From positions 1-55,607 of the forward strand of contig MHMZ01000012.1 of the NCBI GenBank assembly GCA_001819555.1: DNA of 55,607 nucleotides, written 5' to 3'. Of this stretch, positions 5,676-18,161 are shown one piece after another. A program made the translations under genes and the position numbers. The notes below the pieces were generated by a model. That model was not told where the DNA came from. It searched no databases and saw only the letters and a program-made list of their open reading frames with translations. Source of the DNA: Candidatus Portnoybacteria bacterium RIFCSPHIGHO2_02_FULL_39_12. GTDB taxonomy: Bacteria > Patescibacteriota > Minisyncoccia > Portnoybacterales > UBA2143. Each line of letters starts with the position of its first letter. Position 1 is the first letter of the stretch.

Positions 5676-5704
5676 TTGGAAAATAAGTTTAAAAGAGGTA
5701 TAAT
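5676..5704 (+). promoter_or_regulatory. Putative promoter of the secretion-like operon (TTGGAA-17-TATAAT)
   Basis: TTGGAA at 5676-5681 and TATAAT at 5699-5704, 8 nt before the ATG at 5713. A perfect DnaA-box 9-mer (TGTGGATAA) lies just upstream at 5652-5660. Confidence 0.5.
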
Positions 5705-5712
5705 CATACAAG

Positions 5713-6120
5713 ATGCCATCGTTATTCTCTCTTAAAAAATTATTGATAATGGCAATTTTGATATTGGCCTTGATTTTTATATTATTCTTCTGGCCAAAAA
5801 CGCTTTTTCAAATCACAAACACCTCTTCTTTAACCATGGCCGGCAATCTCTTCGGCGGAAAAACAAAAGAAGTAATACCTTGCCTTCACCCTTTCACCGG
5901 TTTTTACATCAAGCTAAGCGGGCCAACTGCCGGTGATTTTATTTATAACAGCGGCACCTCAAAAAGTTATTTATACGGACCGCCCAACCCCAACCGTTTA
6001 GGACAATGGCTTTTGGGTTATGCGGCCGGAGATGTTAAATGTTTTACAGCCGAAAAACACGGCAAATGGCGAAATCCGAAATCCGGCACCCTTATTTTAT
6101 TTCACGGCTCAAGCATGTAA
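5713..6120 (+). CDS. Hypothetical membrane-anchored protein
   Basis: 135 aa with a single N-terminal TM segment. First gene of a long co-directional block. Confidence 0.55.
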   Translation: MPSLFSLKKLLIMAILILALIFILFFWPKTLFQITNTSSLTMAGNLFGGKTKEVIPCLHPFTGFYIKLSGPTAGDFIYNSGTSKSYLYGPPNPNRLGQWLLGYAAGDVKCFTAEKHGKWRNPKSGTLILFHGSSM

Positions 6121-6134
6121 ATGAATTCAAGACT

Positions 6135-7091
6135 ATGAATCTTTTTAAAAAACCCAAAAAAATCAAAACGTTCTTCACCATCGCTATCTTGTCTCTCGGC
6201 ATTATTATCGGCGGAATTTTAGTTTTAAGCAGTAAAACCAGTCAATCAGAAAAAAACATAATTGTCAATAACGAATCAGCTAATCAGGATTCTGACCAAG
6301 ACGGCCTTTTGGACTGGGAAGAAGAAATTTATCAAACCGACCCTAATAATCCGGATACTGATAATGACGGCTATTTAGACGGCGAAGAGATTGCCACCGG
6401 CTACGACCCGACAAAGCCGGCGCCCAATGATAAATTAAGTGAAAAAGCCATTGAACCAAGACCGGCTAAAGGCGCGCTCGCCGCCGACTCAAACTTTACC
6501 CAGCTTCTTTTAAAAAACATTGTGGCTGGGTTAATGACCAAAACGCTTAATCCCGGCTCAAGCGAAGAAAACCCGGCTCTTTTAAATCCCGCTTCTCAAG
6601 AAATTTTAGACCAATTTATCAGCCGGGCGCTTTCTGACTCCAGCCAGATTTTTCTTCCCCAAATCAAAGAAAGCGAATTAAAAATTTCCAACGACAACAG
6701 CCGCCAGGCTCTTAAAAATTACCTGACAACTTACAGCCAAATAATTTTAAAAGAATTAGAAAAGCCGGAGTTTGAAAAAACAGAGATGGCCGAGGTATTT
6801 TTAGCTATTCAATCCAAGGACTTTTCCGGCTTAGATAAAAGAATAAACGCCTATAAAAATACCTATCAAGAAATGAAAAATATTTTAGTTCCTTCCCAAG
6901 CCCTAAAAATTCATAAATTAGAATTGCAGATTCTTTTAATTAGCTTAAATACTTTTCAGGCAGTTAAAAACATTGACCAAGACCCGCTAAAGGCGCTTTT
7001 GGCTATTCAAAATCATCCAATTACGATTTCCTTAGCTCAAGAAATGGTCAAAAAAATAGACGAGTTAATTGTCAAAGAAATAGCTCAATGA
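6135..7091 (+). CDS. Membrane-anchored protein with thrombospondin-type-3-like Ca-binding repeats
   Basis: The start was moved to the ATG at 6135 (MNLFKKPKK followed by a TM segment), because the 6039 start overlaps the previous ORF. DSDQDGLLDWEE and DTDNDGYLDGEE are DxDxDG-type repeats. Confidence 0.6.
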   Translation: MNLFKKPKKIKTFFTIAILSLGIIIGGILVLSSKTSQSEKNIIVNNESANQDSDQDGLLDWEEEIYQTDPNNPDTDNDGYLDGEEIATGYDPTKPAPNDKLSEKAIEPRPAKGALAADSNFTQLLLKNIVAGLMTKTLNPGSSEENPALLNPASQEILDQFISRALSDSSQIFLPQIKESELKISNDNSRQALKNYLTTYSQIILKELEKPEFEKTEMAEVFLAIQSKDFSGLDKRINAYKNTYQEMKNILVPSQALKIHKLELQILLISLNTFQAVKNIDQDPLKALLAIQNHPITISLAQEMVKKIDELIVKEIAQ

Positions 7092-8809
7092 ATCGAAAAT
7101 TTGTCTCAATTTTTCTGCTTATCGCTTTAATCAGCTTAAACCTGACCGGTCTTTTTTATCCAAAAAACATTCAAGCTCAAACCGAAGTGCCGGTTAAGGA
7201 TGCTAAATCCATTACCACTCAAATCGCCAACGCCGTAAAAAGCCTGGCTAAAACAGCTTGGAAATACGCCAAGGACCATGCTTCCAGATGGGCGGTAAAA
7301 GTAGCTGATTGGGCTTGGCAAGAGGCCTTGGCCGCGGCTTTGGCCATAGTCAAGAAAAAAATCTTAGATATGCTGGTCAACGAGATTATTGTCTGGATTC
7401 AGGGCGGCGGCGAGCCGAAATTTATTACTGACTGGTGGGGATTTTTAAGCGAAGCAACCGGCGAAGCGGCCCAAAAATTCGTTCGGGAATTAACAGGAAC
7501 AGACATCTGTTCTCCTTTTAAGCCGCAAATCCTCATCGCCTTAGAGGAGCCGCAAACTTTCGGCCAAAGAGCCGCTTGCACCTTAGATGATATTGTGGGA
7601 AATATTGAAAATTTTTACGAGGATTTTCGCTATGGCGGCTGGGAGGGTTGGATTAAAATAACTGAACCGCAGAACAATTTTTACGGCGCCTTTCTTATGG
7701 CTCAAGACAGACAAATAGAATTAATGTCTCAAGCTAAAGAAGCGGCTCAAGCCAAAGGCATTGCCGGCGCCGGCTGGCTGGGCGATGAAAGATGCGTCAA
7801 GTGCGAGGCGCTTGACGAAGAAGCCGGAGAAATTGTGGAAGGCAATGATTCGGATGAATGTGAAGAATTATTTGAAATAGCTCCTGACACCTTCTTCTGC
7901 GAGGAAACAAAAACTTTTACGCCGGGAGACCTAGTGGGTCAGGCCGCGGCTAAAGCGGCTTTCACTGACATTGACTGGCTGGTTAATCTTACCTCTAAAT
8001 CAGAATTGGGCGCTTATTTAGCCGCCATTACCAATGCCTTAATTAATCGGGTGGTTAAAGAGGGTTTATCTATGGTCAAGGGAGTTCTCTCGGCTAATGA
8101 ACAAAACAATCCGCCTAGATATTTGCCTTCTGGCCGAACGCCTGATACCTCAATCTCATCCGCTTCGGTTGAATCAATAACCTTTGAGGATGGCTCAACT
8201 GAATCCTTAATCACTCTTGAAGTAGCCGAAACCGATGAGATTGCTATAACAATAGAAGGAAGAGAGTCAACCACTGGCCAGCTCGTCCCTTTAAGTAATT
8301 TTTCAGTGAGCGCCGCTAATGATAATCCAGCCGCGGCGGCCGTAGCGCCGGATTATCAAACCACTAACAGCCAAGGCCGAGCTATTTTTTCAGTAATGGG
8401 ACTTGAAGAAGGCTCTGCTATTATTTCTTTCCAAGCCGGCAGCCAAACCGCCACTCTATCAATTTCAATAACTGCCTCTACTTACAAACCCGACGAAGAC
8501 GAAGAAGAAACTCCGACAGATACAACTCCGCCAAACATTTCAATAACTTCGCCGCAAGACAACGCAACCGTTTCTGGCACAATTACTATCTCCGCGGACG
8601 CTTCAGATAATTCCGGAATTAAAGAAGTAATATTTTATCTGGACGGAATCCAAATAAGCGTTGTCACGACGCCCCCTTATCAAATTTCTTTTGACACTAA
8701 TACAATGGAAAATGGCCAACATTCAATCAAAGCAACGGCAATTGATTCTGCGAATAACCAAACAGATTATTCTATCATTGTTGATACGCAAAATACCATT
8801 TCTGAATGA
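7088..8809 (+). CDS. Secreted protein with two C-terminal Ig-like domains
   Basis: 573 aa with a signal peptide and an ATGA overlap with the previous gene. It has a Cys/acidic-rich middle region. The C-terminal Ig-like repeats (TVSGTITISADASDNSGIKEVIFYLDG...) resemble the C-terminus of the PBP at 26989-29619. Confidence 0.6.
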   Translation: MNRKFVSIFLLIALISLNLTGLFYPKNIQAQTEVPVKDAKSITTQIANAVKSLAKTAWKYAKDHASRWAVKVADWAWQEALAAALAIVKKKILDMLVNEIIVWIQGGGEPKFITDWWGFLSEATGEAAQKFVRELTGTDICSPFKPQILIALEEPQTFGQRAACTLDDIVGNIENFYEDFRYGGWEGWIKITEPQNNFYGAFLMAQDRQIELMSQAKEAAQAKGIAGAGWLGDERCVKCEALDEEAGEIVEGNDSDECEELFEIAPDTFFCEETKTFTPGDLVGQAAAKAAFTDIDWLVNLTSKSELGAYLAAITNALINRVVKEGLSMVKGVLSANEQNNPPRYLPSGRTPDTSISSASVESITFEDGSTESLITLEVAETDEIAITIEGRESTTGQLVPLSNFSVSAANDNPAAAAVAPDYQTTNSQGRAIFSVMGLEEGSAIISFQAGSQTATLSISITASTYKPDEDEEETPTDTTPPNISITSPQDNATVSGTITISADASDNSGIKEVIFYLDGIQISVVTTPPYQISFDTNTMENGQHSIKATAIDSANNQTDYSIIVDTQNTISE

Positions 8810-8854
8810 CAATAACAAAATATAACTTTTTAAAAAATTTAGAATAAATCGGTT

Positions 8855-11140
8855 ATGTCTTTTTCTTGGCTTAAAAATAAAAAAATACTTTTTAGTTTTC
8901 TATTAATATTTATTGTTAGTTCTTTGGGAGTTTTTGTTTTGAGAATTCAAAACGCAGACGCTGTGGTAAAAGAAGCAGTAGGCAAGGCAATCAACTGGGT
9001 GGCTGATTTTACTTTAGAAGGAATAATGTGGCTCATTGCCAAAATCGGCGCCATAATCCATACTCTTGTTTCAATATTTTTCTGGATTGCCGCTTTATTT
9101 TTACAAATGGTCTTTGGTATTGAAGAGTTTACTAAAGCCGGCGTGGTTCAAGTAGGCTGGATTTTAACTAGGGACTTAGTTAATCTGCTTTTCATCTTAG
9201 TTTTAATGGTCATTGCTTTTGCCACTATTTTGCGAATAGAATCCTATGGGCTTAAAACAGCTCTGCCCAAACTTCTTATTGCCGTTCTTTTAATTAATTT
9301 CAGCTTAGTTATCGCCGGAATTATTATTGATTTTTCTCAAGTTTTGACTCGTTTCTTTATTTCTGGCAGCTACGGGGCCCTAAGTGAACACATTGCCAGT
9401 ATCCTAAAAATCCAAAAAGTTTATGAATTAAACCCGGAAGCCAATGTCGGAGAAAAAATAGCTCAAGGATTGGGCGGAATAATAATGCTGATTGTCTCTA
9501 TTTTTTTGGGCATCTTTTTAATCTTAGCGGCGGCCGTAATCATCGGCTTAGGCGCTTTTCTTTTAATAGTGCGATTAATCGCTCTTTGGATTTTGTTGAT
9601 TTTAGCTCCTTTGGCTTGGTTTTTCTGGATTTTGCCAGCCACCCAAAAATTATGGACTGATTGGTGGCGTTCTTTTCTCAAATGGACTTTTTTCGCGCCT
9701 GTTTACGCTTTTTTTATTTATTTAGCGCTTCAGACAGCTGAAGGCGGCGGGTTTAGTAATATTATTTCTCAAGAAATGGAAAATATTGTCAATGCCGAGG
9801 GCTGGAGCGCTACTATAGCTAATTCTTTAGCCAGCACTCCGCGGCTCCTGCTTCAATTTATCGCTATCTTGGGGCTTTTGGTTGGCGGTTTAATCGCCGG
9901 CCAAAAATTAAGTCTCTACGGAGCTGATGGGACAATGAAAGTCGCCAAATGGATCGGCAAAGGCGCGGCGGGCTGGGCTAGCCGGCAAGCGACTCATATA
10001 CCACTGCCTTGGGCGCAAAGAATGGGTGGCTGGATATCAAGACGCGGAGAAGGTAGAACACAAAGGGGCGACGAAGGAAGAATTACCCAATTATTAAGAG
10101 GCGGCGGAGAGCTTTTACAAAAAACTAGAGGTCGAGGTGTATTTAGTCCGGGTGCTTGGCGAAGAGCTTGGCCCGCTTACAGAAAAGAAATAGAAGCCAT
10201 AGCTTATGCCCGGCCAACTGGCGCTCTGCGCGACCAATTAAATTTTATTTTCTCTTTAGGCAGAGCGAGAACTAGTTTTGAAGACCAAGCAATAGAAACG
10301 GAAGTTAATCGAAGAAAACAAGAAATAGCCGCAACCAACCGATCATCTCCTTATCTTTTAAGCGAATTAGGAAAAGCCGTTGCGGCTGGTCATCAGGTCG
10401 ATACCTCTGCTCTTATCCGCTTAATCTTTGAACAAAACGACCAGAATGATCTAATAACAAACACTCCATTTGGCGACCATGTTGACCATATTTACAGTGA
10501 CGAAAACTGCACTAATGTAGTTTATGATACTTTAAACCGAGTTGGCTTTACTGACGAACAGCAAGCAAAAATTGCTATGGACTTAGGTAATCTCGCTTAT
10601 ATGAGCGGCAATTATATGAATTTTGGCATGGGTAAATATGATAGCACGCAGCGACGCTTTAAGCGCGCTAGCCCACAAGAGCAAAGAGATGCCGCAGCCC
10701 GCAAGGCATCTGGCGTTAAAGCTCAAACTAAGGCTGATATGCTGCATTGGAATACGCTTGTAGAAGCAGTGCCTGTCTCTGTTGACCCAGACGGAATCGG
10801 TAATCTTCACGGAGGAGGAGAAGAATATTTAAGATATATGACGGATTCTGAAATAGGCCAATCAAATAGATTGCGTCGCGACTTTATAGAAAAGGCGGGT
10901 AGCGATAGAATCGCTCAGCAAATGAGAAACTTTTCCGATAGAGTGGAAAATGGCTATGATATTACTTATCTTGATCCGGATGGAGAAACAGTCACCAGAC
11001 ACATTTCAGCCGACACGAAACAAGCCGGGCTTATCAGAAAATTTGCTGCCCAATTAGAGGCATTAAGAACAGGCCGAAAACCCACTTGGTATGGGCCGCA
11101 AGAAGAACGTCAATATGGAGAGTTAAGATGGGTAACATAA
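8855..11140 (+). CDS. Polytopic membrane protein, VirB6/TrbL-like, with a large C-terminal soluble domain
   Basis: 761 aa. The first ~360 aa contain about 7-8 hydrophobic helices. This is followed by an Arg/Gly-rich linker and a ~350-aa hydrophilic domain. Its position next to PrgI-like and VirB4-like genes supports the call. Confidence 0.55.
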   Translation: MSFSWLKNKKILFSFLLIFIVSSLGVFVLRIQNADAVVKEAVGKAINWVADFTLEGIMWLIAKIGAIIHTLVSIFFWIAALFLQMVFGIEEFTKAGVVQVGWILTRDLVNLLFILVLMVIAFATILRIESYGLKTALPKLLIAVLLINFSLVIAGIIIDFSQVLTRFFISGSYGALSEHIASILKIQKVYELNPEANVGEKIAQGLGGIIMLIVSIFLGIFLILAAAVIIGLGAFLLIVRLIALWILLILAPLAWFFWILPATQKLWTDWWRSFLKWTFFAPVYAFFIYLALQTAEGGGFSNIISQEMENIVNAEGWSATIANSLASTPRLLLQFIAILGLLVGGLIAGQKLSLYGADGTMKVAKWIGKGAAGWASRQATHIPLPWAQRMGGWISRRGEGRTQRGDEGRITQLLRGGGELLQKTRGRGVFSPGAWRRAWPAYRKEIEAIAYARPTGALRDQLNFIFSLGRARTSFEDQAIETEVNRRKQEIAATNRSSPYLLSELGKAVAAGHQVDTSALIRLIFEQNDQNDLITNTPFGDHVDHIYSDENCTNVVYDTLNRVGFTDEQQAKIAMDLGNLAYMSGNYMNFGMGKYDSTQRRFKRASPQEQRDAAARKASGVKAQTKADMLHWNTLVEAVPVSVDPDGIGNLHGGGEEYLRYMTDSEIGQSNRLRRDFIEKAGSDRIAQQMRNFSDRVENGYDITYLDPDGETVTRHISADTKQAGLIRKFAAQLEALRTGRKPTWYGPQEERQYGELRWVT

Positions 11141-11152: not shown

Positions 11153-12085
11153 ATGAATAATTTTAAACTACTCACTCAAGAACAATTAAAAGACCCTGTG
11201 GTCGCGGAAAAAATCAAGAAATTAGCGGGGGATATTATTCGGCATATGATGACCAAAGAGGCCTATAATTTATTTTTGAACTTAGAAAAATCTTTAGCTG
11301 CCGTTAATTTAAAAACTGCATTCCCTAAATTAGCTCAGGAATATGAAAGGCTGGTTATTCAGCTAAAATTAACCGCCTTGCCTATGCTTAATAACGAAGA
11401 AACAGTTAGAGTTATTAAAGAACATTTCTTAGAGAGCTTAGAAGTTAATATTTTTAATGGCTTTAAAGTGAATATTGACATAGAAAACCGATTAACCGCT
11501 AAGTTGTTTTCTATTCCCCTAACGCCGCGAGATGACCTTCGCCAAGGGCTTCAAAGCGCAGTTCAAAACAATCAGCAAAAAATCGGTGCGCTAACGATTA
11601 GTCAATGGATTAGCGATTATAATAATTTTTCTCACCCTGACCAAAGAACCAATATCTCGCCAAGAGAATATCTGCTTTCTAGCCGACAGGTTAGCGGACT
11701 TTCCGAAGAAGATAAAAACAAGCTCTATACGCTTTTTCATGTTTATGACCATCTGCTTTTAGTCACGCCAGTGATGAGCGAAGAAGAAATGCGGGAAATT
11801 ATTGGTTCGCCAGCTCGGTCGCCTGTTCAAAAACCCATGCCAACCAAACCGGAAAAACCGGCTCTTCCATTAACCGCCCAGCCACATCCCCTTCCTCCGC
11901 TTCCGGTCCGGCCGCCAATGCCGCCATCAACCCAACCACCCCCTCCCCTATCTTCTGCTTATGAATCGCGAAGAACCATCCGTTTGCGCGATGACCGCTA
12001 TCTGGAGCCAATTGAAGAAATGTCGAGGCCGAAACAAACAGAGCCCAGAATAGAGGGGAATGTGGTAGATTTAAAAAGTCGTTAA
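11153..12085 (+). CDS. Hypothetical protein with a proline-rich C-terminal region
   Basis: 310 aa with a C-terminal PxP-rich tract (PKPMPTKPEKPALPLTAQPHPLPPLPVRPPMPPSTQPPPP), reminiscent of VirB10/TonB-type linkers. Confidence 0.5.
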   Translation: MNNFKLLTQEQLKDPVVAEKIKKLAGDIIRHMMTKEAYNLFLNLEKSLAAVNLKTAFPKLAQEYERLVIQLKLTALPMLNNEETVRVIKEHFLESLEVNIFNGFKVNIDIENRLTAKLFSIPLTPRDDLRQGLQSAVQNNQQKIGALTISQWISDYNNFSHPDQRTNISPREYLLSSRQVSGLSEEDKNKLYTLFHVYDHLLLVTPVMSEEEMREIIGSPARSPVQKPMPTKPEKPALPLTAQPHPLPPLPVRPPMPPSTQPPPPLSSAYESRRTIRLRDDRYLEPIEEMSRPKQTEPRIEGNVVDLKSR

Positions 12086-12371: not shown

Positions 12372-12375
12372 AACT

Positions 12376-13023
12376 ATGCCGCAAAAACTATCAGCCGCTT
12401 CAATTCAAAAACATTTAGAAATTAAAGAAATCAAAGACGACGCTCTGGTCCTAAAAAGCGGGGGGCTAAGGGCAATTTTAATGTGTTCAAGCGTTAACTT
12501 TGCCTTAAAATCAACGGAAGAACAGGACGCCCTGATTTACAAATATCAGGAATTTCTTAACGGCCTGGACTTCCCTGTTCAAATTATGGTCGCTTCGCGG
12601 AAATTTAATATTGACCCCTATATTCAAATGCTTCAATTCAAAGAAAAAGAACAGGAGAACGAGCTATTAAGAGTTCAGACCGCCGAATACATTGATTTTA
12701 TTAAGGGGCTGACCGAAATGGCCAATATTATGACCGAATCTTTTTATCTGGTGGTGCCGTTTAATCCTTCGCCGATTAAAATCGGCTTTTTTGACAAATT
12801 ATTCAGCCGTGAAAAATCAGAAGCCAAAGAACAAGCATTTCAAGAATTAAAAACCCAGCTTTGGCAAAGGGTGGAGTTTGCGATAAGCGGCCTAAAGGGC
12901 ATGGGCATAAGAGCAATCCCCTTAAATACCGAAGAGATGATTGAATTATTTTATAAACTCTATAATCCGTCGGCTAAAGAAGATTTGGAATTGAAGAAAG
13001 CAAAGGAAATGCGGTTGCAGTAA
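12376..13023 (+). CDS. Hypothetical protein resembling the N-terminal region of VirB4/TrbE ATPases
   Basis: 215 aa. The pattern LEIKEIKDDALVLKSGGLRAILMCSSVNFALKSTEEQDAL is typical of the first ~100 aa of Gram-positive VirB4 homologues. It has no Walker motifs. Confidence 0.45.
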   Translation: MPQKLSAASIQKHLEIKEIKDDALVLKSGGLRAILMCSSVNFALKSTEEQDALIYKYQEFLNGLDFPVQIMVASRKFNIDPYIQMLQFKEKEQENELLRVQTAEYIDFIKGLTEMANIMTESFYLVVPFNPSPIKIGFFDKLFSREKSEAKEQAFQELKTQLWQRVEFAISGLKGMGIRAIPLNTEEMIELFYKLYNPSAKEDLELKKAKEMRLQ

Positions 13024-13142: not shown

Positions 13143-14936
13143 ATGATGAAATTATTCAAAAAACGCTCCCAAAAAATAACTCAAGAAGAAATCCCAGCCA
13201 AAGAGACTTCTGTTATTGACCTTATTTCCCCGGCCGGTTTAAAAATCGGCTCCAATGAACTGCAAATTGAAGAAAAATACTGCCGGACGATTTTTATTTT
13301 TACCTATCCCCGGGTCTTGGCCACCGGCTGGTTTTCGCCGATTATTACTTTAGACCGAGAAATGAATATCTCAATGTTTATTCATCCGGCTGAAACCGGC
13401 TTGGTCTTAAAAAATTTAGAAAAAAAGACAGCCCAGGTCTCATCGCAAATAACTCTTCAGCAGGAAAAAGGCAAAGTCAGGGACCCGGTCTTGGAAACCG
13501 CGCTCAAAGACATTGAAGAATTAAGAGACCGGCTTCAGCAGGGCACGGAACGGCTTTTTAAATTCGGTCTTTATATTACTTTTTTCGCTGACTCGCCTGA
13601 AAAACTAAATGAAATTGAAAATGAAATCAGAGCGCTTCTTGAAACAAAAATGGTTTACGCCAAGCCGGCTGTTTTCCAACAAGAGCAGGGCTTTATTTCC
13701 ACCCTCCCCTTAGAAGAAGACAAGCTCCTGATTCATAATAGCTTTAATACTACTCCCCTCTCTTTGTCCTTCCCTTTTATCTCATCCGATTTATCTGATA
13801 ATAAGGGCGTGCTTTACGGCATCAACCGGCATAATAATTCTTTGATTTTATTTGACCGATTTAGCTTGGAGAATCCGAACTTTTGTTTATTCGGTGTCTC
13901 CGGCGGAGGCAAAAGCTATTTTGTCAAACTGGAAGTTCTTCGTTCTTTAATGCAAGGAACCGAAGTCATCATCATTGACCCGGAAAAAGAATATAAATAT
14001 CTGGCCGAAACAGTCGGCGGCAGTTTTATTGATATTTCTTTAAGCTCCCCCCACCATCTCAATCCTTTTGATTTGCCTCTGGTCGGCCAGGATGAAAATC
14101 CGGCTGACGCTTTCAGAAGTAATATTATCAATCTGGTCGGGCTGTTTAGAATAATGCTTGGCGGTTTGACGCCCGAAGAAGACGCCATTATGGATAAAGC
14201 CATTGCTGAAACTTACGCTTCCAGAGACATTACAGCGGAATCGGATTTTTCCAAAATCACGCCGCCTCTGATGTCAGACCTTTACACGGTTTTAAAAAGC
14301 ATTATTGGCGGCGAAAAATTAGCAATCCGCTTGGAAAAATACGTCAGCGGCAGTTACGCCGGATTTTTCAACCAGCCGACCAATGTTCAATTAAAAAAGA
14401 AATTAGTGGTTTTTAGCATCCGCGATCTGGAAGAAGAATTAAGGCCTTTGGCGATGTTTGTCATCCTCCGTTATGTCTGGAATATCATCCGCTCTGAATT
14501 GAAAAAAAGAATTTTGGTGGTTGACGAGGCCTGGTGGATGATGCGATATGAAGACGGCGCTTCTTTTCTTTTCGGCATCGCCAAAAGAGCCAGAAAATAT
14601 TACCTGGGGCTAACAACCATCACTCAAGACATAGCCGACTTTATGAAGTCAAAATACGGCAAGCCGATTGTGACCAATTCGTCGCTTCAGCTTTTGATGA
14701 AGCAATCGCCGGCCACTATTGAAGTGGTCAAAGAGACCTTTAATTTAACCGAGCAGGAAAAATATATGCTTTTGGAATCCAGCGTCGGCGAAGGCATTTT
14801 CTTTGCCGGCTTAAAGCATGTGGCGATTAAAGTGGTCGCCTCTTATACCGAAGACCAGATTATTACCACTGACCCGGCCCAATTATTGGCCATAGAAAAA
14901 GCTAAAGAAGAGCTGGCGAGAGAGGAAGGAAAATAA
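13143..14936 (+). CDS. virB4: VirB4/TraC-like type IV secretion ATPase
   Basis: 597 aa with Walker A GVSGGGKS and Walker B ILVVDEAW. The N-terminal YPRVLATGWFSPI motif is typical of the VirB4 family. Confidence 0.85.
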   Translation: MMKLFKKRSQKITQEEIPAKETSVIDLISPAGLKIGSNELQIEEKYCRTIFIFTYPRVLATGWFSPIITLDREMNISMFIHPAETGLVLKNLEKKTAQVSSQITLQQEKGKVRDPVLETALKDIEELRDRLQQGTERLFKFGLYITFFADSPEKLNEIENEIRALLETKMVYAKPAVFQQEQGFISTLPLEEDKLLIHNSFNTTPLSLSFPFISSDLSDNKGVLYGINRHNNSLILFDRFSLENPNFCLFGVSGGGKSYFVKLEVLRSLMQGTEVIIIDPEKEYKYLAETVGGSFIDISLSSPHHLNPFDLPLVGQDENPADAFRSNIINLVGLFRIMLGGLTPEEDAIMDKAIAETYASRDITAESDFSKITPPLMSDLYTVLKSIIGGEKLAIRLEKYVSGSYAGFFNQPTNVQLKKKLVVFSIRDLEEELRPLAMFVILRYVWNIIRSELKKRILVVDEAWWMMRYEDGASFLFGIAKRARKYYLGLTTITQDIADFMKSKYGKPIVTNSSLQLLMKQSPATIEVVKETFNLTEQEKYMLLESSVGEGIFFAGLKHVAIKVVASYTEDQIITTDPAQLLAIEKAKEELAREEGK

Positions 14937-14972
14937 GCAAATTTAAAAATTTCTAATGTCTGCCAATAAATT

Positions 14973-15050
14973 AGCAAGATAAGCGAGATAAGCTAATAAG
15001 TAAATTAAGCTTATTTTACTTATTTTACTTAATTTACTTATTTTACTTAC
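14973..15050. repeat. AT-rich palindromic repeat, family F (AAGTAAATTAAGCTTA core)
   Basis: Shares AGCAAGATAAGC and AAGTAAATTAAGCTTATTTTACTT modules with 44814-44862 and 49598-49659. Confidence 0.75.
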
Positions 15051-15051
15051 T

Positions 15052-15540
15052 ATGCCCGATTATAGCGGACAATTAACTCAAGTCAGACAACAAGAAGGGG
15101 TTAAAAAAGCTTCTCTACGAATAAAACTGCCGGCCTTAATCGCCCATAGAATGAAAAAGGCCGTAGCCGACAAAGAAAGCTGGGCCTGGCCTTTTGCATT
15201 TATCTTAGCTCTTTTTAATGATGGAGTTGATTTATTAGGATTAGGAGCAATCCCTATTTTAGGAGATTTTCTTGATATTTTTTGCGGAATAATTTTAACA
15301 ATGTTTCTTTGGGATATCGGGTGGACGATTAAGTGGAAAATTAGAATTGCTATTTGGTTAGCTGCTGGCTTAGAAATAATTTTGGGACTGGCTATTCTGC
15401 CGGAACTTATCCCGTTTTGGCTTCTCTCTGTCTGGTACGCTCATCATCAAGTTAATAAAAAAGCGGAAATAGCTGAAAGAGGATTGAAAAAATATAGGGC
15501 CGGCAAGATTGACCGAGAAGCCGCAGCGGAGTTTAGTTAA
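15052..15540 (+). CDS. Hypothetical integral membrane protein
   Basis: 162 aa with about 4 hydrophobic helices. It lies within the secretion-like operon. Confidence 0.55.
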   Translation: MPDYSGQLTQVRQQEGVKKASLRIKLPALIAHRMKKAVADKESWAWPFAFILALFNDGVDLLGLGAIPILGDFLDIFCGIILTMFLWDIGWTIKWKIRIAIWLAAGLEIILGLAILPELIPFWLLSVWYAHHQVNKKAEIAERGLKKYRAGKIDREAAAEFS

Positions 15541-15543
15541 AAT

Positions 15544-16233
15544 ATGTTAAAAAATCAAAAAATTAAAATCTATCTATTGCTTTTTGTCTTATGTTTTTTA
15601 GTTATTTTTTCCAGCCAAGCCCAAAGTTCAAAACCGGAGATTACCTTAACCTGGTCAACAAACAGCTATATTCCCTTTAATTATCCGGGCAAAGCTCTAC
15701 CGACTAAAGGCAGTTTAATAGAGGCGGCCACGACGATTGAATCAAAAACCGTCAATCCGGAAGCCCTGTATTATTACTGGTATTTAGATGATAATTTACA
15801 AAGAAACAAATCCGGCCCGGGAAAACTAACTTTTGAATTTTTTGCGGCCGAAGAAGCGGGTCAATCTCATCGAGTAAAACTTTGGCTTAAAAGCCAAGAT
15901 AACGGCTCAATCCTTGAAAAAACCATTGAAATTAAAATAGTCGCCCCCCAGGTCTATATCAAGGGTCCAGCTTTTATTACGGCTGAACAAGAAAAACAAT
16001 TTATTGCCCTGCCTTATTTTTTCAATATTAAAAATATCAATGAATTAAGGTATAATTGGAGTATAGACGAAAAAGAAGCCCGGGAAGCAGAGCTTCAAAA
16101 TCCAAATATTCTAACTCTAAAAATCGGCCAAGTCGCTAAGACAATAACTAAAAACTTAAAGCTTTTAACAGAAAACAAAAACAGCCCCCAACAGAAAACG
16201 GAAACTCGCTTAAAAATTACTTTAACGCCATGA
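15544..16233 (+). CDS. Hypothetical secreted protein
   Basis: 229 aa with an N-terminal signal peptide. Overlaps the next gene by 4 bp. Confidence 0.55.
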   Translation: MLKNQKIKIYLLLFVLCFLVIFSSQAQSSKPEITLTWSTNSYIPFNYPGKALPTKGSLIEAATTIESKTVNPEALYYYWYLDDNLQRNKSGPGKLTFEFFAAEEAGQSHRVKLWLKSQDNGSILEKTIEIKIVAPQVYIKGPAFITAEQEKQFIALPYFFNIKNINELRYNWSIDEKEAREAELQNPNILTLKIGQVAKTITKNLKLLTENKNSPQQKTETRLKITLTP

Positions 16234-17021
16234 AAAAATTCTCAATTTTTGTTATTATTATATTCGCCTTACTATCTGCTTATTCTGTTTCTGCCGCCTA
16301 TCAGTTAGAAACTACTTATCCCGAAATAGAGGGCGTTAAGGCCACAAGCGAATTAACTTCTTTTATCAGATATATCTATATCTACGGCTTAGCAACTATC
16401 GGCCTTGTTGCCTTGGGCGCTTTGGTAATCGGGGGTATAATGTATATGGGCGCTGGAAGCATTACCAGCGCCGAAGAAGCGAAAAAAATAATCTGGGGAG
16501 CAATTGGGGGTCTGCTTTTGGGTTTAGGCGCTTATTTAATTCTAAATACCATTAATCCGGATTTGCTTAAGTTAAAAAAACCAGAGGTGAAGTCCTTTTC
16601 TTTAAGAAAAGAAGAAGAAGCGGCTTATAGAACAGCCAGCGAACAATCGGCCCGTTCGCAATTAAGCCAAGCCGGTATTAATACAAAAAGAGAATGCCAG
16701 CCCAACGAATCTACAGGATGCGTTACTTTTGACGGTATAAGAGAAAATACTCTCAATGAAGTAATTGGCCTTAAAAGAGATTGTGGATGCGATATATATG
16801 TTTCGGGCGCAAGAGAATCCGGCCATCGCGCCGGCTCAAGAAGTCATCAAACTGGCCATAAAATTGACATTCATCTGAATGACCCCTTAAATAATTACAT
16901 TTCAGAAAATTTTAAACGGGTTGGCACTCGGCCAAGCGATCAGGCGCCACTATATGAAAATCCCCAAACCGGCAATCTTTATGCCAAAGAAAGCGATCAT
17001 TGGGATATTTTTGTTCGTTAA
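16230..17021 (+). CDS. T4SS pilin-like (TrbC/VirB2-like) N-terminal module fused to a putative LAS/M15-type zinc peptidase domain
   Basis: 263 aa with a signal peptide and two hydrophobic helices ending in LILNTINPDL. The C-terminal domain carries SHQTGHKIDIH and ESDHWDI, which resemble the HxxGxAxD and ExxH(W) motifs of M15 cell-wall peptidases. Confidence 0.5.
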   Translation: MKKFSIFVIIIFALLSAYSVSAAYQLETTYPEIEGVKATSELTSFIRYIYIYGLATIGLVALGALVIGGIMYMGAGSITSAEEAKKIIWGAIGGLLLGLGAYLILNTINPDLLKLKKPEVKSFSLRKEEEAAYRTASEQSARSQLSQAGINTKRECQPNESTGCVTFDGIRENTLNEVIGLKRDCGCDIYVSGARESGHRAGSRSHQTGHKIDIHLNDPLNNYISENFKRVGTRPSDQAPLYENPQTGNLYAKESDHWDIFVR

Positions 17022-17048
17022 AGAAAATATTATTACCTGATTAAAATC

Positions 17049-18161
17049 ATGCTCAAAAAAACTCTTATTATCTTAATTATCCTGCTTGTCCTTGTGGCGG
17101 GAACTTTAGTGGTCTATAATTTCTTCTTTAAAAAAGAAGCGGCGCCGGTCGTCACCGAAGAATTGCCTGAAGAAAAAATAACTCCTTCTCCAACTGCTAA
17201 AATTAAGCCAATTTCCCAAGAGCCGGTTTTAGCGCCGACCATAGACAATCAAAAGATTAAATATTATTTAGCCAATAACGGCAATGTTTTTGAGTCAAAT
17301 TTTGACGGCTCGGATTTAGAACGTCTTACTTCTAACGCGCTTCAAGGTCTTAAATATATTATTTGGGCGCCGAACAAGACAAAAGTCATCGGTATCTTTG
17401 AAAAAGACGGAGAAGTTAAAAAATATTTTTACGACTATCAAACAAAAAAATCAGCCCTGCTTAACCAAAATATCCAATGGCTGACCTGGTCGCCTGACAG
17501 CCGGCAAATCGCCTATCAATATTACAACCCCCAAACCCAGGAAAACTACATCAGTTTGGCCGATCCCGACGGTTCAAACTGGCAAAACGCCTTTAAGACC
17601 AGAATCAAAGACATAATCGTAGAATGGCCGAAAAAAGAGCTGATTTCTTTAAGAACCAGGCCGAGCGGCCTGGCCCAAAGCGAGCTTTATACGCTCAACC
17701 CCCAAACCAGCGCCTTTCAAAAAGTTTTAAGCGGCATTTACGGCTTAAGCGCGCTTTGGTCGCCTTCCGGAGAAAAATTTATTTTTTCCCAGACAAATAG
17801 CGACGGCCGCAATCTGAAATTAAAAATAACCAATAAAAACGGGGAGGCGCCCAAGGAATTAAATGTTTTGACTCTGCCTGAAAAATGCGTTTGGAGCCAA
17901 GACGAAAGATATGCGTTCTGCGCTGTCCCCTCGGCTCTCCCCCCTCAAGCTATTCTGCCGGATGATTATTATAAAGAAACTTTCTCAACGGCCGATGACT
18001 TTTATAAAATAAACACAGAAACCAATCAAAAAACGCTTTTAATTGAACCGGAGCAAATGGAAAGCGACTATGACGCTACTTCGCTCCTTCTCTCGCCCCA
18101 AGAAGATTATTTGTTTTTTGTGAATAAGAAAGACGGGCTGTTATACTCGCTAAAGCTATAA
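17049..18161 (+). CDS. Membrane-anchored TolB-like beta-propeller protein
   Basis: 370 aa with an N-terminal TM segment and repeated W(S/A)P(D/S)(G/S)..I(A/F) motifs (LTWSPDSRQIAY, ALWSPSGEKFIF) typical of PD40/TolB blades. Confidence 0.6.
   Translation: MLKKTLIILIILLVLVAGTLVVYNFFFKKEAAPVVTEELPEEKITPSPTAKIKPISQEPVLAPTIDNQKIKYYLANNGNVFESNFDGSDLERLTSNALQGLKYIIWAPNKTKVIGIFEKDGEVKKYFYDYQTKKSALLNQNIQWLTWSPDSRQIAYQYYNPQTQENYISLADPDGSNWQNAFKTRIKDIIVEWPKKELISLRTRPSGLAQSELYTLNPQTSAFQKVLSGIYGLSALWSPSGEKFIFSQTNSDGRNLKLKITNKNGEAPKELNVLTLPEKCVWSQDERYAFCAVPSALPPQAILPDDYYKETFSTADDFYKINTETNQKTLLIEPEQMESDYDATSLLLSPQEDYLFFVNKKDGLLYSLKL

What the first reader, a model, noticed from the sequence alone, without database searches (positions are those of the whole stretch)
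5676..18161. ~12.5 kb co-directional type IV secretion-like operon with mostly unrecognisable components
Twelve tightly packed plus-strand genes, several with 4-bp overlaps, follow one promoter. They include:
- a VirB4-like ATPase (13143-14936)
- a PrgI/VirB3-like protein (12093-12371)
- a VirB6/TrbL-like polytopic protein with a 400-aa soluble tail (8855-11140)
- a pilin-like protein (16230-17021)
- a proline-rich protein
- Ig-domain and Ca-binding secreted proteins
- a TolB-like propeller protein

No VirD4 coupling protein, relaxase, VirB11 or recognisable VirB7-10 core is present. It is therefore not a standard conjugation system.

In epibiotic CPR bacteria, clusters of this kind are suspected to mediate host contact or DNA and protein uptake. 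Most of the subunits here are uncharacterised.
Basis: partly seen in the sequence, partly recalled or inferred. Interest (0 to 1): 0.65.

Follow-up and report, generated by a model that had tools for sequence, protein, structure and literature searches.

The report
Patescibacterial type IV secretion/pilus operon
This is the origin-adjacent chromosomal type IV secretion gene cluster that ultra-small CPR/Patescibacteria carry in place of a conjugation system; the system was described in 2023-2025 and this is a typical Parcubacteria-type copy, though its cargo and several conserved subunits remain unexplained.

Summary
Twelve co-directional, tightly packed plus-strand genes lie at 5713-18161.

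Five core parts are recognisable:
- VirB4 ATPase
- PrgI/VirB3
- VirB6/TrbL-like channel protein
- VirB2-type pilin

No relaxase, VirD4 or VirB11 is encoded anywhere in the 55.6-kb window. All other genes there are housekeeping genes next to dnaA/dnaN.

The contig comes from a Candidatus Portnoybacteria genome assembled from Rifle aquifer metagenomes. This is not new as a kind. It matches the Patescibacteria T4SS described by Wang 2023 and Quiñonero-Coronel 2025: a monoderm, MPF_FATA-related machine that carries a pilin, lacks a relaxase and sits near the replication origin.

In 80 related Parcubacteria loci the block ksgA-[g02 g03 g04 x g06 g07 g08 g09 g10 g11 g12]-jag-yidC-rnpA-dnaA recurs in the same order.

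Two leads go beyond the papers I read:
- The pilin's C-terminal domain models confidently (pLDDT 93) as a LAS/M15-type zinc cell-wall peptidase.
- The large secreted protein upstream of VirB6 carries the VirB5-like mature N-terminal motif [IV]PVF[DE]. This link is suggestive but not statistically supported.

Best reading: a VirB4-powered pilus-building, host-contact machine. Whether it exports or imports, and what it carries, is unknown.

The parts
5676..5704 (+). Promoter-like site (TTGGAA-17-TATAAT) upstream of the first gene.
   Evidence: Consensus scan, 10 of 12 positions. It is a pattern match only. It lies divergent from a perfect 12/12 site on the minus strand at 5572..5543.
5713..6120 (+). 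g01: 135-aa membrane-anchored protein of unknown function. It is only loosely part of the block.
   Evidence: One N-terminal TM segment and no Pfam or NCBIfam hit. Homologues occur in 17 of 80 related loci, mostly on the opposite strand upstream of g02.
6135..7091 (+). g02: secreted or anchored calcium-binding protein, with TSP3/EF-hand-like repeats followed by a helical domain.
   Evidence: TSP3_bac 4.4e-9. The family profile hits the Bap calcium-binding region 7c7u (4e-6) and lanmodulin. Signal/anchor segment. Present in 40 of 80 loci, always just upstream of g03.
7088..8809 (+). g03: 573-aa secreted protein. It has a conserved helical, Cys-containing N-domain of about 340 aa and variable C-terminal surface-binding domains (Big_7 here). 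Candidate VirB5-like pilus tip or nucleator.
   Evidence: Domains and distribution:
- Big_7 1.1e-20.
- Relatives swap the C-terminus for fn3, F5/8-type-C or a surface Ig domain.
- Found in 43 of 80 loci, directly upstream of the VirB6-like gene.

VirB5 link:
- The mature N-terminus reads VPVKD here.
- The motif [IVLM]P[VI]F[DE] occurs in 25 of 122 family members against 0 of 920 background ORFs.
- R388 VirB5 (TrwJ) starts GIPVFDGT.
- One member hits DUF4141, the Bacteroides TraI family, at 30.8 bits.

Not supported by:
- hhalign against TrwJ.
- PDB profile searches.
- The AF2 model, pLDDT 64, which gives no fold match.
8855..11140 (+). g04: extended VirB6/TrbL-like polytopic membrane protein. 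It has about 7 TM segments in aa 1-355 and a hydrophilic tail of about 400 aa.
   Evidence: Precomputed PF19590 TrbL_3 on the identical protein. Four of 25 family members hit PF04610 TrbL at 1.3e-7. The family HMM aligns to pSK41 TrsL (7e-4 in a 27-protein set; once R388 proteins were added, TrwJ scored slightly better through coiled-coil similarity to the tail), and hhalign aligns the TM core to R388 TrwI (E 0.002). TM scan. Found in 59 of 80 loci. The tail is poorly conserved and rich in coiled-coil or charged residues. The window protein itself has no hit in the local Pfam scan.
11153..12085 (+). g05: 310-aa cytoplasmic protein with a proline-rich segment. It occupies a fast-evolving slot between VirB6 and VirB3.
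   Evidence: No TM segment and no family hit. Sequence homologues occur in only 6 loci, yet nearly every related locus has a gene of 130-560 aa, often Pro-rich, in the same slot.
12093..12371 (+). g06: PrgI/TrsC-type VirB3-like small membrane protein.
   Evidence: PF12666 PrgI 6.6e-11. Two TM segments. The family HMM's best prototype hits are pSK41 TrsC and pCF10 PrgI. Found in 73 of 80 loci.
12376..13023 (+). g07: TrsD/TraD-family protein, a free-standing paralogue of the VirB4 N-terminal domain.
   Evidence: NCBIfam TrsD 5.9e-8, and the VirB4 N-terminal regions of the Mbov_0397 and CD1110 families. Precomputed PF26593 TraC-like. The family HMM hits pSK41 TrsD at 8.6e-7. Found in 77 of 80 loci.
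13143..14936 (+). g08: VirB4 ATPase with intact Walker A (GVSGGGKS) and Walker B (VVDEAW) motifs.
   Evidence: P-loop_TraG 8.8e-24, AAA_10 2.4e-12, CagE_TrbE_VirB 6.2e-7. At least 8000 homologues were found, the scoring cap. The listed top 120 are 69-89% identical, and those that carry names are Parcubacteria, Portnoybacteria or Patescibacteria. Catalytic residues are invariant in A1. Family HMM scores: PrgJ 185 bits, TrsE 171 bits, R388 TrwK only 25 bits.
15052..15540 (+). g09: 162-aa membrane protein with 3-4 TM segments, of unknown role.
   Evidence: TM scan. No family hit. Detected in 45 of 80 loci only after iterative profile searching, always just downstream of virB4.
15544..16233 (+). 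g10: secreted protein of tandem Ig-like (beta-sandwich) repeats. There are two repeats here and three in most relatives.
   Evidence: Alignment A2 shows repeated W...[ND]G...SG.GK modules. The family profile hits the phage Hoc tandem-Ig protein 3shs at 7e-6. Signal peptide. Found in 63 of 80 loci. It is not VirB8-like.
16230..16574 (+). g11 N-terminal part: VirB2/TrbC-type T4SS pilin module, a signal peptide plus two hydrophobic helices ending in ...TINPDL.
   Evidence: The window copy scores 17 bits against PF18895 (E 0.006, below threshold). Orthologues at the same slot score 32-37 bits, above the 26.6-bit threshold. Alignment A3. Found in 62 of 80 loci. There is only one pilin gene in this window.
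16632..17018 (+). g11 C-terminal part: extracytoplasmic domain of about 130 aa, predicted to be a LAS/M15-type zinc peptidase (cell-wall peptidase) fused to the pilin.
   Evidence: Family and motif:
- 1114 cluster representatives hold the domain.
- Invariant H-x6-D...E-x-x-H-W-D (g11 residues H206, D213, E254, H257) in A9.
- 16 of 41 members carry an N-terminal T4SS_pilin, one has PG_binding_1 and one has PG_binding_3.

Structure:
- AF2 pLDDT 93, pTM 0.84.
- Foldseek top PDB hits are Shh-N (6e1h) and MepA (1u10), E about 0.06.
- Top viral hits are a hedgehog-like microvirus peptidase (E 7.9e-4) and Peptidase M15/M15A proteins with probability 0.93-0.97.

Context and limits:
- In the 80 loci the domain occurs six times, always on the T4SS pilin.
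- No Pfam or PDB sequence hit.
- TM-scores are only 0.4-0.46.
17049..18161 (+). g12: membrane-anchored TolB-like (PD40) beta-propeller protein, the last gene of the block.
   Evidence: TIGR02800 TolB propeller 8.6e-6. DPPIV_N and PD40 hits are weak. The family profile hits TolB structures such as 4r40 at 3e-6. N-terminal anchor. Found in 58 of 80 loci. Its 3' end overlaps the convergent wzy-like gene by 86 bp.

Best explanation
The cluster is the chromosomal, origin-proximal type IV secretion system typical of Patescibacteria (CPR), here in a Candidatus Portnoybacteria (class Paceibacteria/Parcubacteria) genome.

Shown:
- It encodes the cytoplasmic-membrane core of a monoderm, MPF_FATA-related T4SS: VirB6/TrbL-like g04, VirB3/PrgI-like g06, TrsD-like g07 and a catalytically intact VirB4 ATPase g08. 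The g06-g07-g08 order is the same as trsC-trsD-trsE on staphylococcal pSK41.
- It also encodes a VirB2-type pilin (g11) and four conserved extracytoplasmic proteins: calcium-binding g02, the large modular g03, tandem-Ig g10 and the TolB-like propeller g12.
- It lacks a relaxase, a coupling protein and VirB11 within the window.
- It sits between ksgA and rnpA/dnaA in many Parcubacteria lineages.

Inferred mechanism:
- The parts present (VirB2, VirB3, VirB4, VirB6 and a candidate VirB5) are the pilus-assembly subset of a T4SS. The DNA-processing and substrate-recruitment subset is absent.
- I therefore read it first as a VirB4-powered machine that extracts pilin from the membrane and polymerises an extracellular tube or filament on the VirB6 platform.
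- g03 may nucleate or tip that filament. Its swappable C-terminal binding domains would then recognise the host surface.
- The LAS-type peptidase domain carried on the pilin would cut peptidoglycan cross-links, either the cell's own wall (a VirB1 substitute) or the host's.
- g02, g10 and g12 would form an envelope-spanning scaffold in place of VirB7-10.
- The apparatus then mediates contact-dependent exchange with a host cell rather than conjugation.

Direction and cargo (host macromolecules in, or effectors out) are not determined here.
For: Core identities:
- assign the core parts.
- Prototype comparisons pick plausible counterparts for five families: VirB4, TrsD and TrsC are the unambiguous top hits. 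TrsL and TrsB are top hits only among the Gram-positive prototypes and score 9.3 and 4.5 bits.
- The VirB4 family scores 185 and 171 bits against the Gram-positive PrgJ and TrsE, and 25 bits against proteobacterial TrwK.

Chromosomal, not mobile:
- The whole window is housekeeping genes (uvrD, ksgA, yidC, rnpA, dnaA, dnaN, PBP1, ruvABC, tRNA synthetases, tmRNA/SmpB), with no integrase or relaxase.
- The order ksgA-g02...g12-jag-yidC-rnpA-dnaA-dnaN recurs across loci labelled Azam-, Sung-, Giovannoni-, Kaiser-, Vogel-, Taylor- and Portnoybacteria.

Selection:
- VirB4 has a median identity of 61% across these loci. DnaA has 49% and YidC 40%.

Localisation:
- Nine of the 12 products have signal, anchor or TM segments.

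Pilin peptidase and VirB5-like motif:
- Pilin-fused peptidase.
- VirB5-like motif and gene position.

Literature:
- The Southlakia T4SS (SEML1_0006-0019) is essential for epibiotic growth. It resembles Gram-positive conjugative systems, has pilins, and lacks a recognisable coupling protein and relaxase (PMC10633639).
- Patescibacteria VirB4 forms its own clade sister to MPF_FATA. TrsD, PrgI, VirB6 and VirB2 lie nearby, relaxases are rare, and the cluster lies near dnaA/dnaN/rnpA/ksgA in Paceibacteria (PMC12102498).
- Tubular structures that may be T4SS pili reach into host cells of a cultivated Patescibacterium that takes up host RNA (bioRxiv 10.64898/2026.06.21.733656).
Against: - No experiment exists for any Paceibacteria T4SS. 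Function is extrapolated from a Saccharimonadia strain and a preprint.
- Only 55.6 kb was examined. A VirD4-like protein could lie elsewhere in the genome, and PMC12102498 finds many distal T4CP homologues in Patescibacteria.
- No VirB8-like protein was detected, although monoderm systems normally need one.
- The window's own pilin scores below the Pfam threshold (17 bits).
- A pilin with a 150-aa C-terminal globular domain may be unable to polymerise. It could be only a membrane-anchored hydrolase.
- The VirB5 link for g03 rests on a short motif, one borderline Pfam hit and gene order. Profile comparison is not significant and the model is of low confidence.
- The LAS assignment rests on Foldseek hits with modest TM-scores (0.4-0.46) plus a motif I matched from memory of VanX-type enzymes.
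Confidence: 0.8

Rival explanations
1. A DNA-uptake (competence) machine. This would be a T4SS working in the import direction, like Helicobacter ComB, bringing in environmental or host DNA as a nucleotide source.
For: No relaxase or coupling protein is present, as in ComB. CPR bacteria lack nucleotide synthesis. In the ABY1 class, T4SS loci sit beside comF, recG and radA (PMC12102498).
Against: In Southlakia, comEC deletion abolishes competence without loss of viability, while the T4SS is essential (PMC10633639, PMC12857230). No comEC, comF or dprA lies in this window. A PilB-like ATPase elsewhere in the window suggests that type IV pili handle uptake, as in Saccharibacteria.
Confidence: 0.1
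2. A dedicated effector or toxin exporter, as in Bordetella Ptl or Brucella VirB. Sec-exported substrates such as g02, g03, g10 or g12 would be pushed across the wall, with no functional pilus.
For: Coupling-protein-less exporters exist (PMC12857230). Several cluster products are Sec-type secreted proteins. Wang 2023 suggests protein export as a possibility (PMC10633639).
Against: The secreted proteins are conserved in a fixed order across the class, like structural parts rather than fast-turning effectors. The pilin is conserved in 62 of 80 loci. Pilins are essential in Southlakia (PMC10633639).
Confidence: 0.15
3. A remnant or active integrative conjugative element that transfers DNA between CPR cells.
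For: The VirB4, TrsD, PrgI and TrbL parts derive from Gram-positive conjugation systems.
Against: There is no relaxase, T4CP, integrase or repeats-bounded island. GC content matches the flanks. The chromosomal position next to the origin is identical across many candidate phyla. The core ATPase is more conserved than DnaA.
Confidence: 0.03
4. Not a T4SS at all: an FtsK/HerA-type ATPase with unrelated membrane proteins.
For: DUF87/HerA central-domain hit at 3.5e-7.
Against: The VirB4-specific N-terminal domain is present, with full-length similarity to PrgJ and TrsE. PrgI, TrsD, TrbL-like and T4SS-pilin genes are adjacent.
Confidence: 0.01

Closest known systems
Patescibacteria-clade T4SS (Quiñonero-Coronel et al. 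2025, PMC12102498), with the Southlakia epibionticum ML1 T4SS SEML1_0006-0019 as the experimentally tested example (Wang et al. 2023, PMC10633639)
   Same: Both have VirB4 with adjacent TrsD, PrgI/VirB3, VirB6 and a VirB2-like pilin. Neither has a relaxase or a local coupling protein. Both are chromosomal and lie next to dnaA, dnaN, rnpA and ksgA. Both come from monoderm, ultra-small, host-dependent bacteria.
   Different: This copy has a single pilin gene, not an array of 6. Its pilin is fused to a LAS-type peptidase domain, whereas Southlakia has separate peptidase and lysozyme genes downstream of virB4. The papers I read do not discuss the Parcubacteria-wide accessory set (g02, g03, g10, g12). 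No genetics exist for this class.
MPF_FATA conjugative T4SS of the pGO1/pSK41/pIP501 type (trsC-trsD-trsE...)
   Same: The gene order VirB3-like, TrsD, VirB4 is the same. The VirB4 family scores 171 bits against TrsE. The TrsD, TrsC, TrsL and TrsB counterparts are detectable, the last two only weakly.
   Different: Absent here: relaxase, VirD4 (TrsK), CHAP/SLT hydrolase (TrsG), topoisomerase and SSB. The cluster is not plasmid-borne. VirB6 lies upstream here rather than downstream. It has extra secreted proteins.
Enterococcal pCF10 Prg/Pcf T4SS
   Same: It shares PrgI (VirB3) and PrgJ (VirB4), at 185 bits to the family HMM, and has a VirB6-like PrgH upstream of PrgI.
   Different: No counterpart was detected here for PrgK hydrolase, PrgL (VirB8-like), PcfC (VirD4), PcfG relaxase or the LPXTG adhesins PrgA, PrgB and PrgC.
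Proteobacterial VirB/Trw (R388) pilus-assembly module VirB2-VirB3-VirB4-VirB5-VirB6
   Same: Both have a VirB2-type pilin. A signal-peptide protein whose mature N-terminus is [IV]PVFD lies directly upstream of VirB6 (TrwJ: GIPVFDGT; g03 family). VirB4 is the only ATPase needed for pilin extraction.
   Different: There is no outer-membrane core (VirB7, VirB9, VirB10) and no VirB8 or VirB11. VirB4 is only distantly related (25 bits). g03 is 2-4 times larger than VirB5, and homology is not statistically supported.
LAS-family zinc peptidases (VanX/VanY M15, MepA, phage M15 endolysins, hedgehog N-domain)
   Same: The g11 C-domain shares the H-x6-D...E-x-x-H pattern, and its best fold matches are these proteins.
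   Different: There is no sequence-level hit to any Pfam or PDB member. It is fused to a T4SS pilin. Activity is untested.

Membership tests
Patescibacteria-clade T4SS (PMC12102498) | VirB4 belongs to the Patescibacteria VirB4 clade, sister to MPF_FATA. | tested here: inconclusive
   No tree was built. The 120 best homologues are 69-89% identical. The few that carry a source name are Parcubacteria, Portnoybacteria or Patescibacteria. The family HMM scores far higher on the MPF_FATA proteins PrgJ and TrsE than on the MPF_T protein TrwK. This is consistent with membership but is not a phylogenetic placement.
Patescibacteria-clade T4SS (PMC12102498) | TrsD, PrgI/VirB3, VirB6 and a VirB2-like pilin are encoded near virB4. 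| tested here: met
   TrsD, PrgI, TrbL_3/TrbL and T4SS_pilin family. All lie within 5 genes of virB4.
Patescibacteria-clade T4SS (PMC12102498) | No relaxase is associated with the cluster. | tested here: met
   Pfam scans of all window ORFs of 100 aa or more found no relaxase, MOB or T4CP family. The rest of the genome was not available.
Patescibacteria-clade T4SS (PMC12102498) | Chromosomal location near dnaA, dnaN, rnpA and ksgA (Paceibacteria and Microgenomatia pattern). | tested here: met
   ksgA at 2182-3111, rnpA at 23469-23810, dnaA at 24216-25574, dnaN at 25812-26933. The same pattern holds in most of the 80 loci.
Conjugative MPF_FATA T4SS / ICE | Relaxase plus type IV coupling protein (VirD4 or TcpA). 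| tested here: not met
   None in the 55.6-kb window.
Conjugative MPF_FATA T4SS / ICE | VirB8-like (PrgL, TraM, TcpC) NTF2-fold subunit. | tested here: not met
   No Pfam or NCBIfam hit. The candidate g10 turned out to be tandem Ig. Family HMMs gave only noise against PrgL. A very divergent VirB8 cannot be excluded.
Conjugative MPF_FATA T4SS / ICE | Dedicated peptidoglycan hydrolase (VirB1, PrgK or TrsG type: SLT and/or CHAP). | tested here: inconclusive
   No SLT or CHAP domain is present. A predicted LAS/M15-like peptidase domain on the pilin may substitute. Relatives carry SLT_3 or C39-like domains on the same pilin.
Conjugative MPF_FATA T4SS / ICE | Mobile-element hallmarks: integrase, variable insertion site, composition shift. 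| tested here: not met
   There is no integrase. The site is fixed across lineages. GC is 0.38-0.43, like the flanks.
VirB4 ATPase family | N-terminal CagE/TrbE/VirB domain plus a C-terminal P-loop domain with Walker A and B motifs. | tested here: met
   PF03135 at aa 40-189 and PF19044 at aa 242-545. G254, G256, K257, S258, D461 and E462 are invariant in A1.
VirB2/TrbC T4SS pilin (PF18895 / PF04956) | Signal peptide plus two hydrophobic helices, with a profile match above threshold. | tested here: inconclusive
   The topology is met. The window copy scores 17 bits, below the 26.6-bit cut-off. Positional orthologues aligned with it score 32-37 bits. Polymerisation is not testable here.
VirB5/TrbJ/TraC pilus-tip family (for g03) | Secreted helical-bundle protein with a mature N-terminal [IV]PV.D motif, encoded next to VirB6, with a profile or fold match. 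| tested here: inconclusive
   The motif is enriched, 25 of 122 against 0 of 920, and matches TrwJ. Gene order is met. One member hits DUF4141 at 30.8 bits. However, hhalign probability is 0.2%, there is no PDB hit, and the low-confidence model gives no fold match.
LAS / peptidase M15 zinc peptidases (for the g11 C-domain) | Zinc ligands H-x(3-6)-D and a distal H with a nearby catalytic E, plus the hedgehog/DD-peptidase fold. | tested here: inconclusive
   The motif is invariant in 41 sequences. The model is confident. The top fold hits are LAS proteins, but only one has E below 1e-3 and TM-scores are 0.4-0.46. There is no sequence-profile hit. Metal binding and activity are not testable here.

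The most novel reading that the evidence does not exclude
The Parcubacteria version of the CPR T4SS may be a complete, self-contained piercing-pilus machine built on a monoderm chassis.

- g03 would be a true, much enlarged VirB5 homologue. It would nucleate a VirB2 pilus on VirB6 and carry interchangeable host-recognition domains at the tip.
- The pilin subunits themselves would carry cell-wall-cutting enzymes: LAS peptidase here, and lysozyme-like or C39-like domains in relatives. The filament would then digest its way through the host's, or the cell's own, peptidoglycan.
- g02, g10 and g12 would form a previously unrecognised envelope scaffold that replaces VirB7-10.

That would make it the first T4SS pilus with enzymatically active subunits, and a concrete mechanism for how epibionts reach host cytoplasm.
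Probability: 0.2. Interest if true: 0.7.

Novelty: new member of a known kind. Interest (0 to 1): 0.38.

Why it matters
The Patescibacteria T4SS is currently the best candidate for the organelle through which a huge, mostly uncultured bacterial radiation lives off host cells. It is essential in the one strain tested, but its cargo, direction and architecture are unknown.

This window adds no new kind of system. It does give a clean, complete Parcubacteria-type copy.

The comparison made here defines a conserved gene set of about 11 genes for that class. It also gives two testable handles: a pilin-borne LAS-type peptidase, and a VirB5-like candidate with swappable binding domains. These could guide structural work (cryo-ET, AlphaFold-multimer) and genetics once a Paceibacteria co-culture becomes tractable.

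Tried and rejected
- **g10 as the missing VirB8.** Rejected. The alignment shows tandem Ig-like repeats, and the family profile hits phage Hoc rather than an NTF2 fold.
- **g03 structure.** AF2 on a 43-sequence alignment gave only pLDDT 64 and pTM 0.30. Foldseek against the PDB gave nothing below E = 1. PDB profile searches with the whole family and with the N-terminal 70 aa found no VirB5. hhalign of A5 against R388 TrwJ aligned only the signal peptide and motif, at probability 0.2%. The HMM hit of g03 and of the g04 tail to TrwJ is coiled-coil noise.
- **g11 C-domain by sequence.** phmmer against the PDB returned spurious uS3 hits. There was no Pfam hit. The word-indexed homologue search found nothing, a wasted search. 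The profile search against the PDB matched only the TM helices of the fused pilin. The domain was identified only through the exhaustive representative search followed by AF2 and Foldseek.
- **g04 tail.** The profile search against the PDB gave only coiled-coil and low-complexity matches.
- **g05 and g12 against PrgL.** Scores of 8-9 bits in a 27-sequence set were treated as noise.
- **hhalign against single R388 sequences.** Results were weak for g04 against TrwI (E 0.002, probability 13%) and g11 against TrwL (E 0.09). They serve as consistency checks only.
- **Failed record look-ups.** AY855841, AF051917 and NC_001621 were not in the collections.
- **RNA genes.** Rfam and ARAGORN found no RNA gene in or near the cluster, only the tmRNA at 49199-49590.
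- **ICE hypothesis.** Rejected on context and synteny.

Full report
**What is there**

Searches show twelve plus-strand ORFs between 5713 and 18161.
- Junctions range from a 4-bp overlap to a 45-bp gap. There are two overlaps: g02/g03 at 7088-7091 and g10/g11 at 16230-16233.
- The exceptions are a 119-bp gap before virB4 and a 115-bp gap after it.
- The second ORF most likely starts at 6135, not 6039. This removes an 82-bp overlap and matches the family consensus.
- A sigma-70-like site at 5676-5704 is a 10/12 consensus match only.
- GC content (0.38-0.43) does not differ from the flanks.
- Nine of the twelve products have a signal peptide, membrane anchor or multiple TM segments. Only g05, g07 and g08 look cytoplasmic.

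**Source organism and context**

- The g03 protein is 100% identical to a GenBank 'hypothetical protein A3F21_00045 [Candidatus Portnoybacteria bacterium RIFCSPLOWO2_01_FULL...]' on a 55,432-bp contig.
- The exact VirB4 protein recurs on Rifle-aquifer metagenome contigs with the same gene order.
- The rest of the window is core chromosome: uvrD, ksgA, a HepT/MNT pair, two Wzy-like genes and a flippase, jag/khpB, yidC, rnpA, dnaA, dnaN, PBP1, a LexA-methyltransferase fusion, tyrS, ruvABC, a PilB-like ATPase, tsaE, holA, rplT, infC, smpB with tmRNA, argS and ileS.
- No relaxase, VirD4/TcpA, VirB11 or integrase is present.

**Core T4SS parts**

- **g08** is a genuine VirB4. It hits P-loop_TraG at 8.8e-24, AAA_10, and the N-terminal CagE_TrbE_VirB domain. 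Its Walker A and B residues are invariant across relatives. At least 8000 homologues were found, the scoring cap. The listed top 120 are 69-89% identical, and those that carry names are Parcubacteria, Portnoybacteria or Patescibacteria. A family HMM scores 185 bits on pCF10 PrgJ and 171 bits on pSK41 TrsE, but only 25 bits on R388 TrwK. It is therefore of the monoderm MPF_FATA type.
- **g06** is PrgI/VirB3-like (6.6e-11).
It is a free-standing relative of the VirB4 N-domain (NCBIfam 5.9e-8; PF26593 precomputed; family HMM against pSK41 TrsD 8.6e-7).
- The order g06-g07-g08 equals trsC-trsD-trsE on pSK41.
- **g04** is an 'extended' VirB6. It has about 7 TM segments in the first 355 aa and then a hydrophilic tail of about 400 aa. 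The identical protein carries a precomputed TrbL_3 hit. Four of 25 relatives hit PF04610 TrbL. The family HMM aligns weakly to pSK41 TrsL.
- **The N-terminal 115 aa of g11** are a VirB2-type pilin module. The window copy is sub-threshold (17 bits). Positional orthologues aligned with it score 32-37 bits on PF18895.

**Synteny across relatives**

A VirB4 alignment retrieved 80 loci from species-representative genomes. Their labels include Azam-, Sung-, Giovannoni-, Kaiser-, Nealson-, Terry-, Portnoy-, Taylor- and Vogelbacteria and Paceibacterota.

Iterated profile searches of my own ORF calls show a recurrent order wherever the contig is long enough:

uvrD - ksgA - (g01) - g02 - g03 - g04 - [variable gene] - g06 - g07 - g08 - (g09) - g10 - g11 - g12 - jag - yidC - rnpA - dnaA - dnaN

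Loci holding each family, out of 80 (many loci are truncated):

| Family | Loci |
|---|---|
| g07 | 77 |
| g06 | 73 |
| g10 | 63 |
| g11 | 62 |
| g04 | 59 |
| g12 | 58 |
| g09 | 45 |
| g03 | 43 |
| g02 | 40 |
| g01 | 17 |
| g05 | 6 |

- The g05 slot is almost always filled by a gene of 130-560 aa, often proline-rich and of unrelated sequence.
- The Wzy/flippase insert is confined to the nearest relatives.
- VirB4 has a higher median identity (61%) than DnaA (49%), YidC (40%) or KsgA (39%) in the same loci. The loci were chosen by VirB4 similarity, which biases this comparison.

This fixed origin-proximal position, together with the missing mobility genes, excludes an ICE.

**Accessory proteins**

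- **g02:** TSP3/EF-hand-like calcium-binding repeats followed by a helical domain.
- **g10:** tandem Ig-like repeats. The profile hits the phage Hoc protein at 7e-6. It is not the missing VirB8.
- **g12:** an anchored TolB-like PD40 propeller. The profile hits TolB structures at 3e-6.
- **g09:** a small polytopic membrane protein with no assignable family.
- **VirB8:** no VirB8-like protein was found.

**Lead 1: a peptidase on the pilin**

- C-terminal extensions of the pilin family vary widely. One relative carries SLT_3 lysozyme and another a C39-like domain.
- The window's extension (aa 120-263) had no Pfam or PDB sequence match.
- An exhaustive search found 1114 cluster representatives.
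- In a 41-sequence alignment, H-x6-D and E-x-x-H-W-D are invariant. From my own knowledge, this is the zinc-site pattern of VanX-type LAS enzymes.
- Of the 41 members, 16 carry an N-terminal T4SS_pilin. One has PG_binding_1 and one has PG_binding_3.
- AF2 gave pLDDT 93 and pTM 0.84.
- The two best PDB fold matches are Sonic hedgehog N-domain and E. coli MepA, both LAS proteins, at E about 0.06.
- The best viral matches are a hedgehog-like microvirus peptidase (E 7.9e-4) and Peptidase M15/M15A proteins at probability 0.93-0.97.
- TM-scores are modest, 0.4-0.46.
- In the 80 loci this domain appears six times, always on the T4SS pilin.

I consider a LAS-type cell-wall peptidase likely (about 0.7). 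It is probably the functional stand-in for VirB1, PrgK or TrsG.

**Lead 2: a VirB5-like candidate**

- g03 has a conserved helical, Cys-containing secreted N-domain of about 340 aa.
- Its C-terminal surface modules are interchangeable: Big_7 here; fn3, F5/8-type-C, surface Ig and DUF4215 in relatives.
- The motif [IVLM]P[VI]F[DE] follows the signal peptide in 25 of 122 members. It occurs in 0 of 920 background ORFs.
- The R388 VirB5 (TrwJ) mature N-terminus is GIPVFDGT.
- One member hits DUF4141 at 30.8 bits over this very stretch. DUF4141 is the family of the gene next to traJ (VirB6) in Bacteroides conjugative transposons.
- g03 directly precedes the VirB6-like gene. virB5 lies just upstream of virB6 in R388, separated only by a small eex lipoprotein gene.
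- Against this, hhalign is not significant. PDB profile searches are empty. The AF2 model is poor and gives no fold match.

I put this at about 0.35-0.4.

**Comparison with the literature**

- Wang et al. 2023 (PMC10633639) showed by Tn-seq that the Southlakia T4SS (SEML1_0006-0019) is essential for epibiotic growth. It resembles Gram-positive conjugative systems, includes essential pilins, and lacks a recognisable coupling protein and relaxase.
- Quiñonero-Coronel et al. 2025 (PMC12102498) surveyed Patescibacteria. They report a distinct VirB4 clade sister to MPF_FATA; frequent adjacent TrsD, PrgI/VirB3, VirB6 and VirB2-like pilins; rare relaxases; scarce VirB8; and proximity to dnaA, dnaN, rnpA and ksgA in Paceibacteria. 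This is the picture seen here.
- That paper mentions VirB5 only for one MPF_T-type outlier.
- The 2025 FEMS review (PMC12857230) lists these systems as a new T4SS group that may build a pilus.
- A 2026 preprint reports tubular structures, possibly T4SS pili, reaching into host cells of a cultivated Patescibacterium that consumes host RNA.

**Mechanism**

The cluster holds the pilus-assembly subset of a T4SS: VirB2, VirB3, VirB4, VirB6 and possibly VirB5. It lacks the substrate-processing subset: relaxase, VirD4 and VirB11.

I therefore commit to a VirB4-driven pilus or tube assembly machine for host contact. It would have a pilin-borne wall peptidase and an envelope scaffold of g02, g10 and g12. 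Transfer direction and cargo are inferred from the literature and are not shown here.

**Verdict**

The system is a new member of a known kind. Interest is moderate to low for the finding as such, with two modest new leads.

Noticed in passing
window 29768-31642 (+): A single 624-aa ORF fuses a complete LexA repressor (LexA_DNA_bind plus Peptidase_S24, aa 10-200) to an N6-adenine DNA methyltransferase (N6_Mtase/Eco57I-type, aa 236-452). A NERD-domain nuclease-like gene lies convergent at 31632-32585. This fusion is unusual.
   Followed up: no
window 18076-22164 (-): Two Wzy_C (O-antigen-ligase-like) genes and a Wzx/MurJ-like flippase are wedged between the T4SS block and jag/yidC. The first one overlaps the end of g12 by 86 bp. 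The insert occurs only in the closest relatives (L007-L009, L025, L047, L053, L054, L067).
   Followed up: partly
window 3118-3968 (-): A HepT/MNT (nucleotidyltransferase) toxin-antitoxin pair lies between ksgA and the T4SS. It is absent from all 80 related loci.
   Followed up: partly
window 4363-5572 (-): Two minus-strand ORFs (4363-4851 and 4876-5370) encode membrane or secreted proteins. They have no Pfam hit and no homologue in the related loci. The region has the highest GC in the window (0.458). A perfect 12/12 sigma-70 consensus with a TG extension lies at 5572..5543, divergent from the T4SS promoter-like site.
   Followed up: partly
window 39555-40040 (-) and 40749-41227 (-): Two small gene pairs look by eye like RelE/ParE-type toxins with upstream antitoxins. 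A Cys-rich 125-aa ORF with no family hit lies at 40177-40554 (+).
   Followed up: no
window 34122-37039 (-): A trio of genes: a RimK-like ATP-grasp, an ATPgrasp_ST fused to a Zn_protease domain, and a 7TM_transglut membrane protein. It may be a peptide-ligase/modification module.
   Followed up: no
window 41581-43290 (-): A lone PilB/GspE-type ATPase (T2SSE 5.9e-115 plus an MshEN domain) has no adjacent pilC/pilM-type genes. It presumably belongs to the type IV pilus or competence system encoded elsewhere.
   Followed up: no
L007-L086 (related loci), pilin slot downstream of virB4: The T4SS pilin family carries very diverse C-terminal extensions: LAS-like peptidase in 6 loci, SLT_3 lysozyme in L053, a C39-like domain in L027, and many Cys-rich tails. 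Some loci have 2 pilin genes, and in L079 and L085 the pilins lie upstream on the opposite strand.
   Followed up: partly
L007-L086 versus window: Across the same loci, VirB4 (median 61% identity) is better conserved than DnaA (49%), UvrD (41%), YidC (40%), KsgA (39%) or DnaN (34%). The loci were selected by VirB4 similarity, so the comparison is biased.
   Followed up: no
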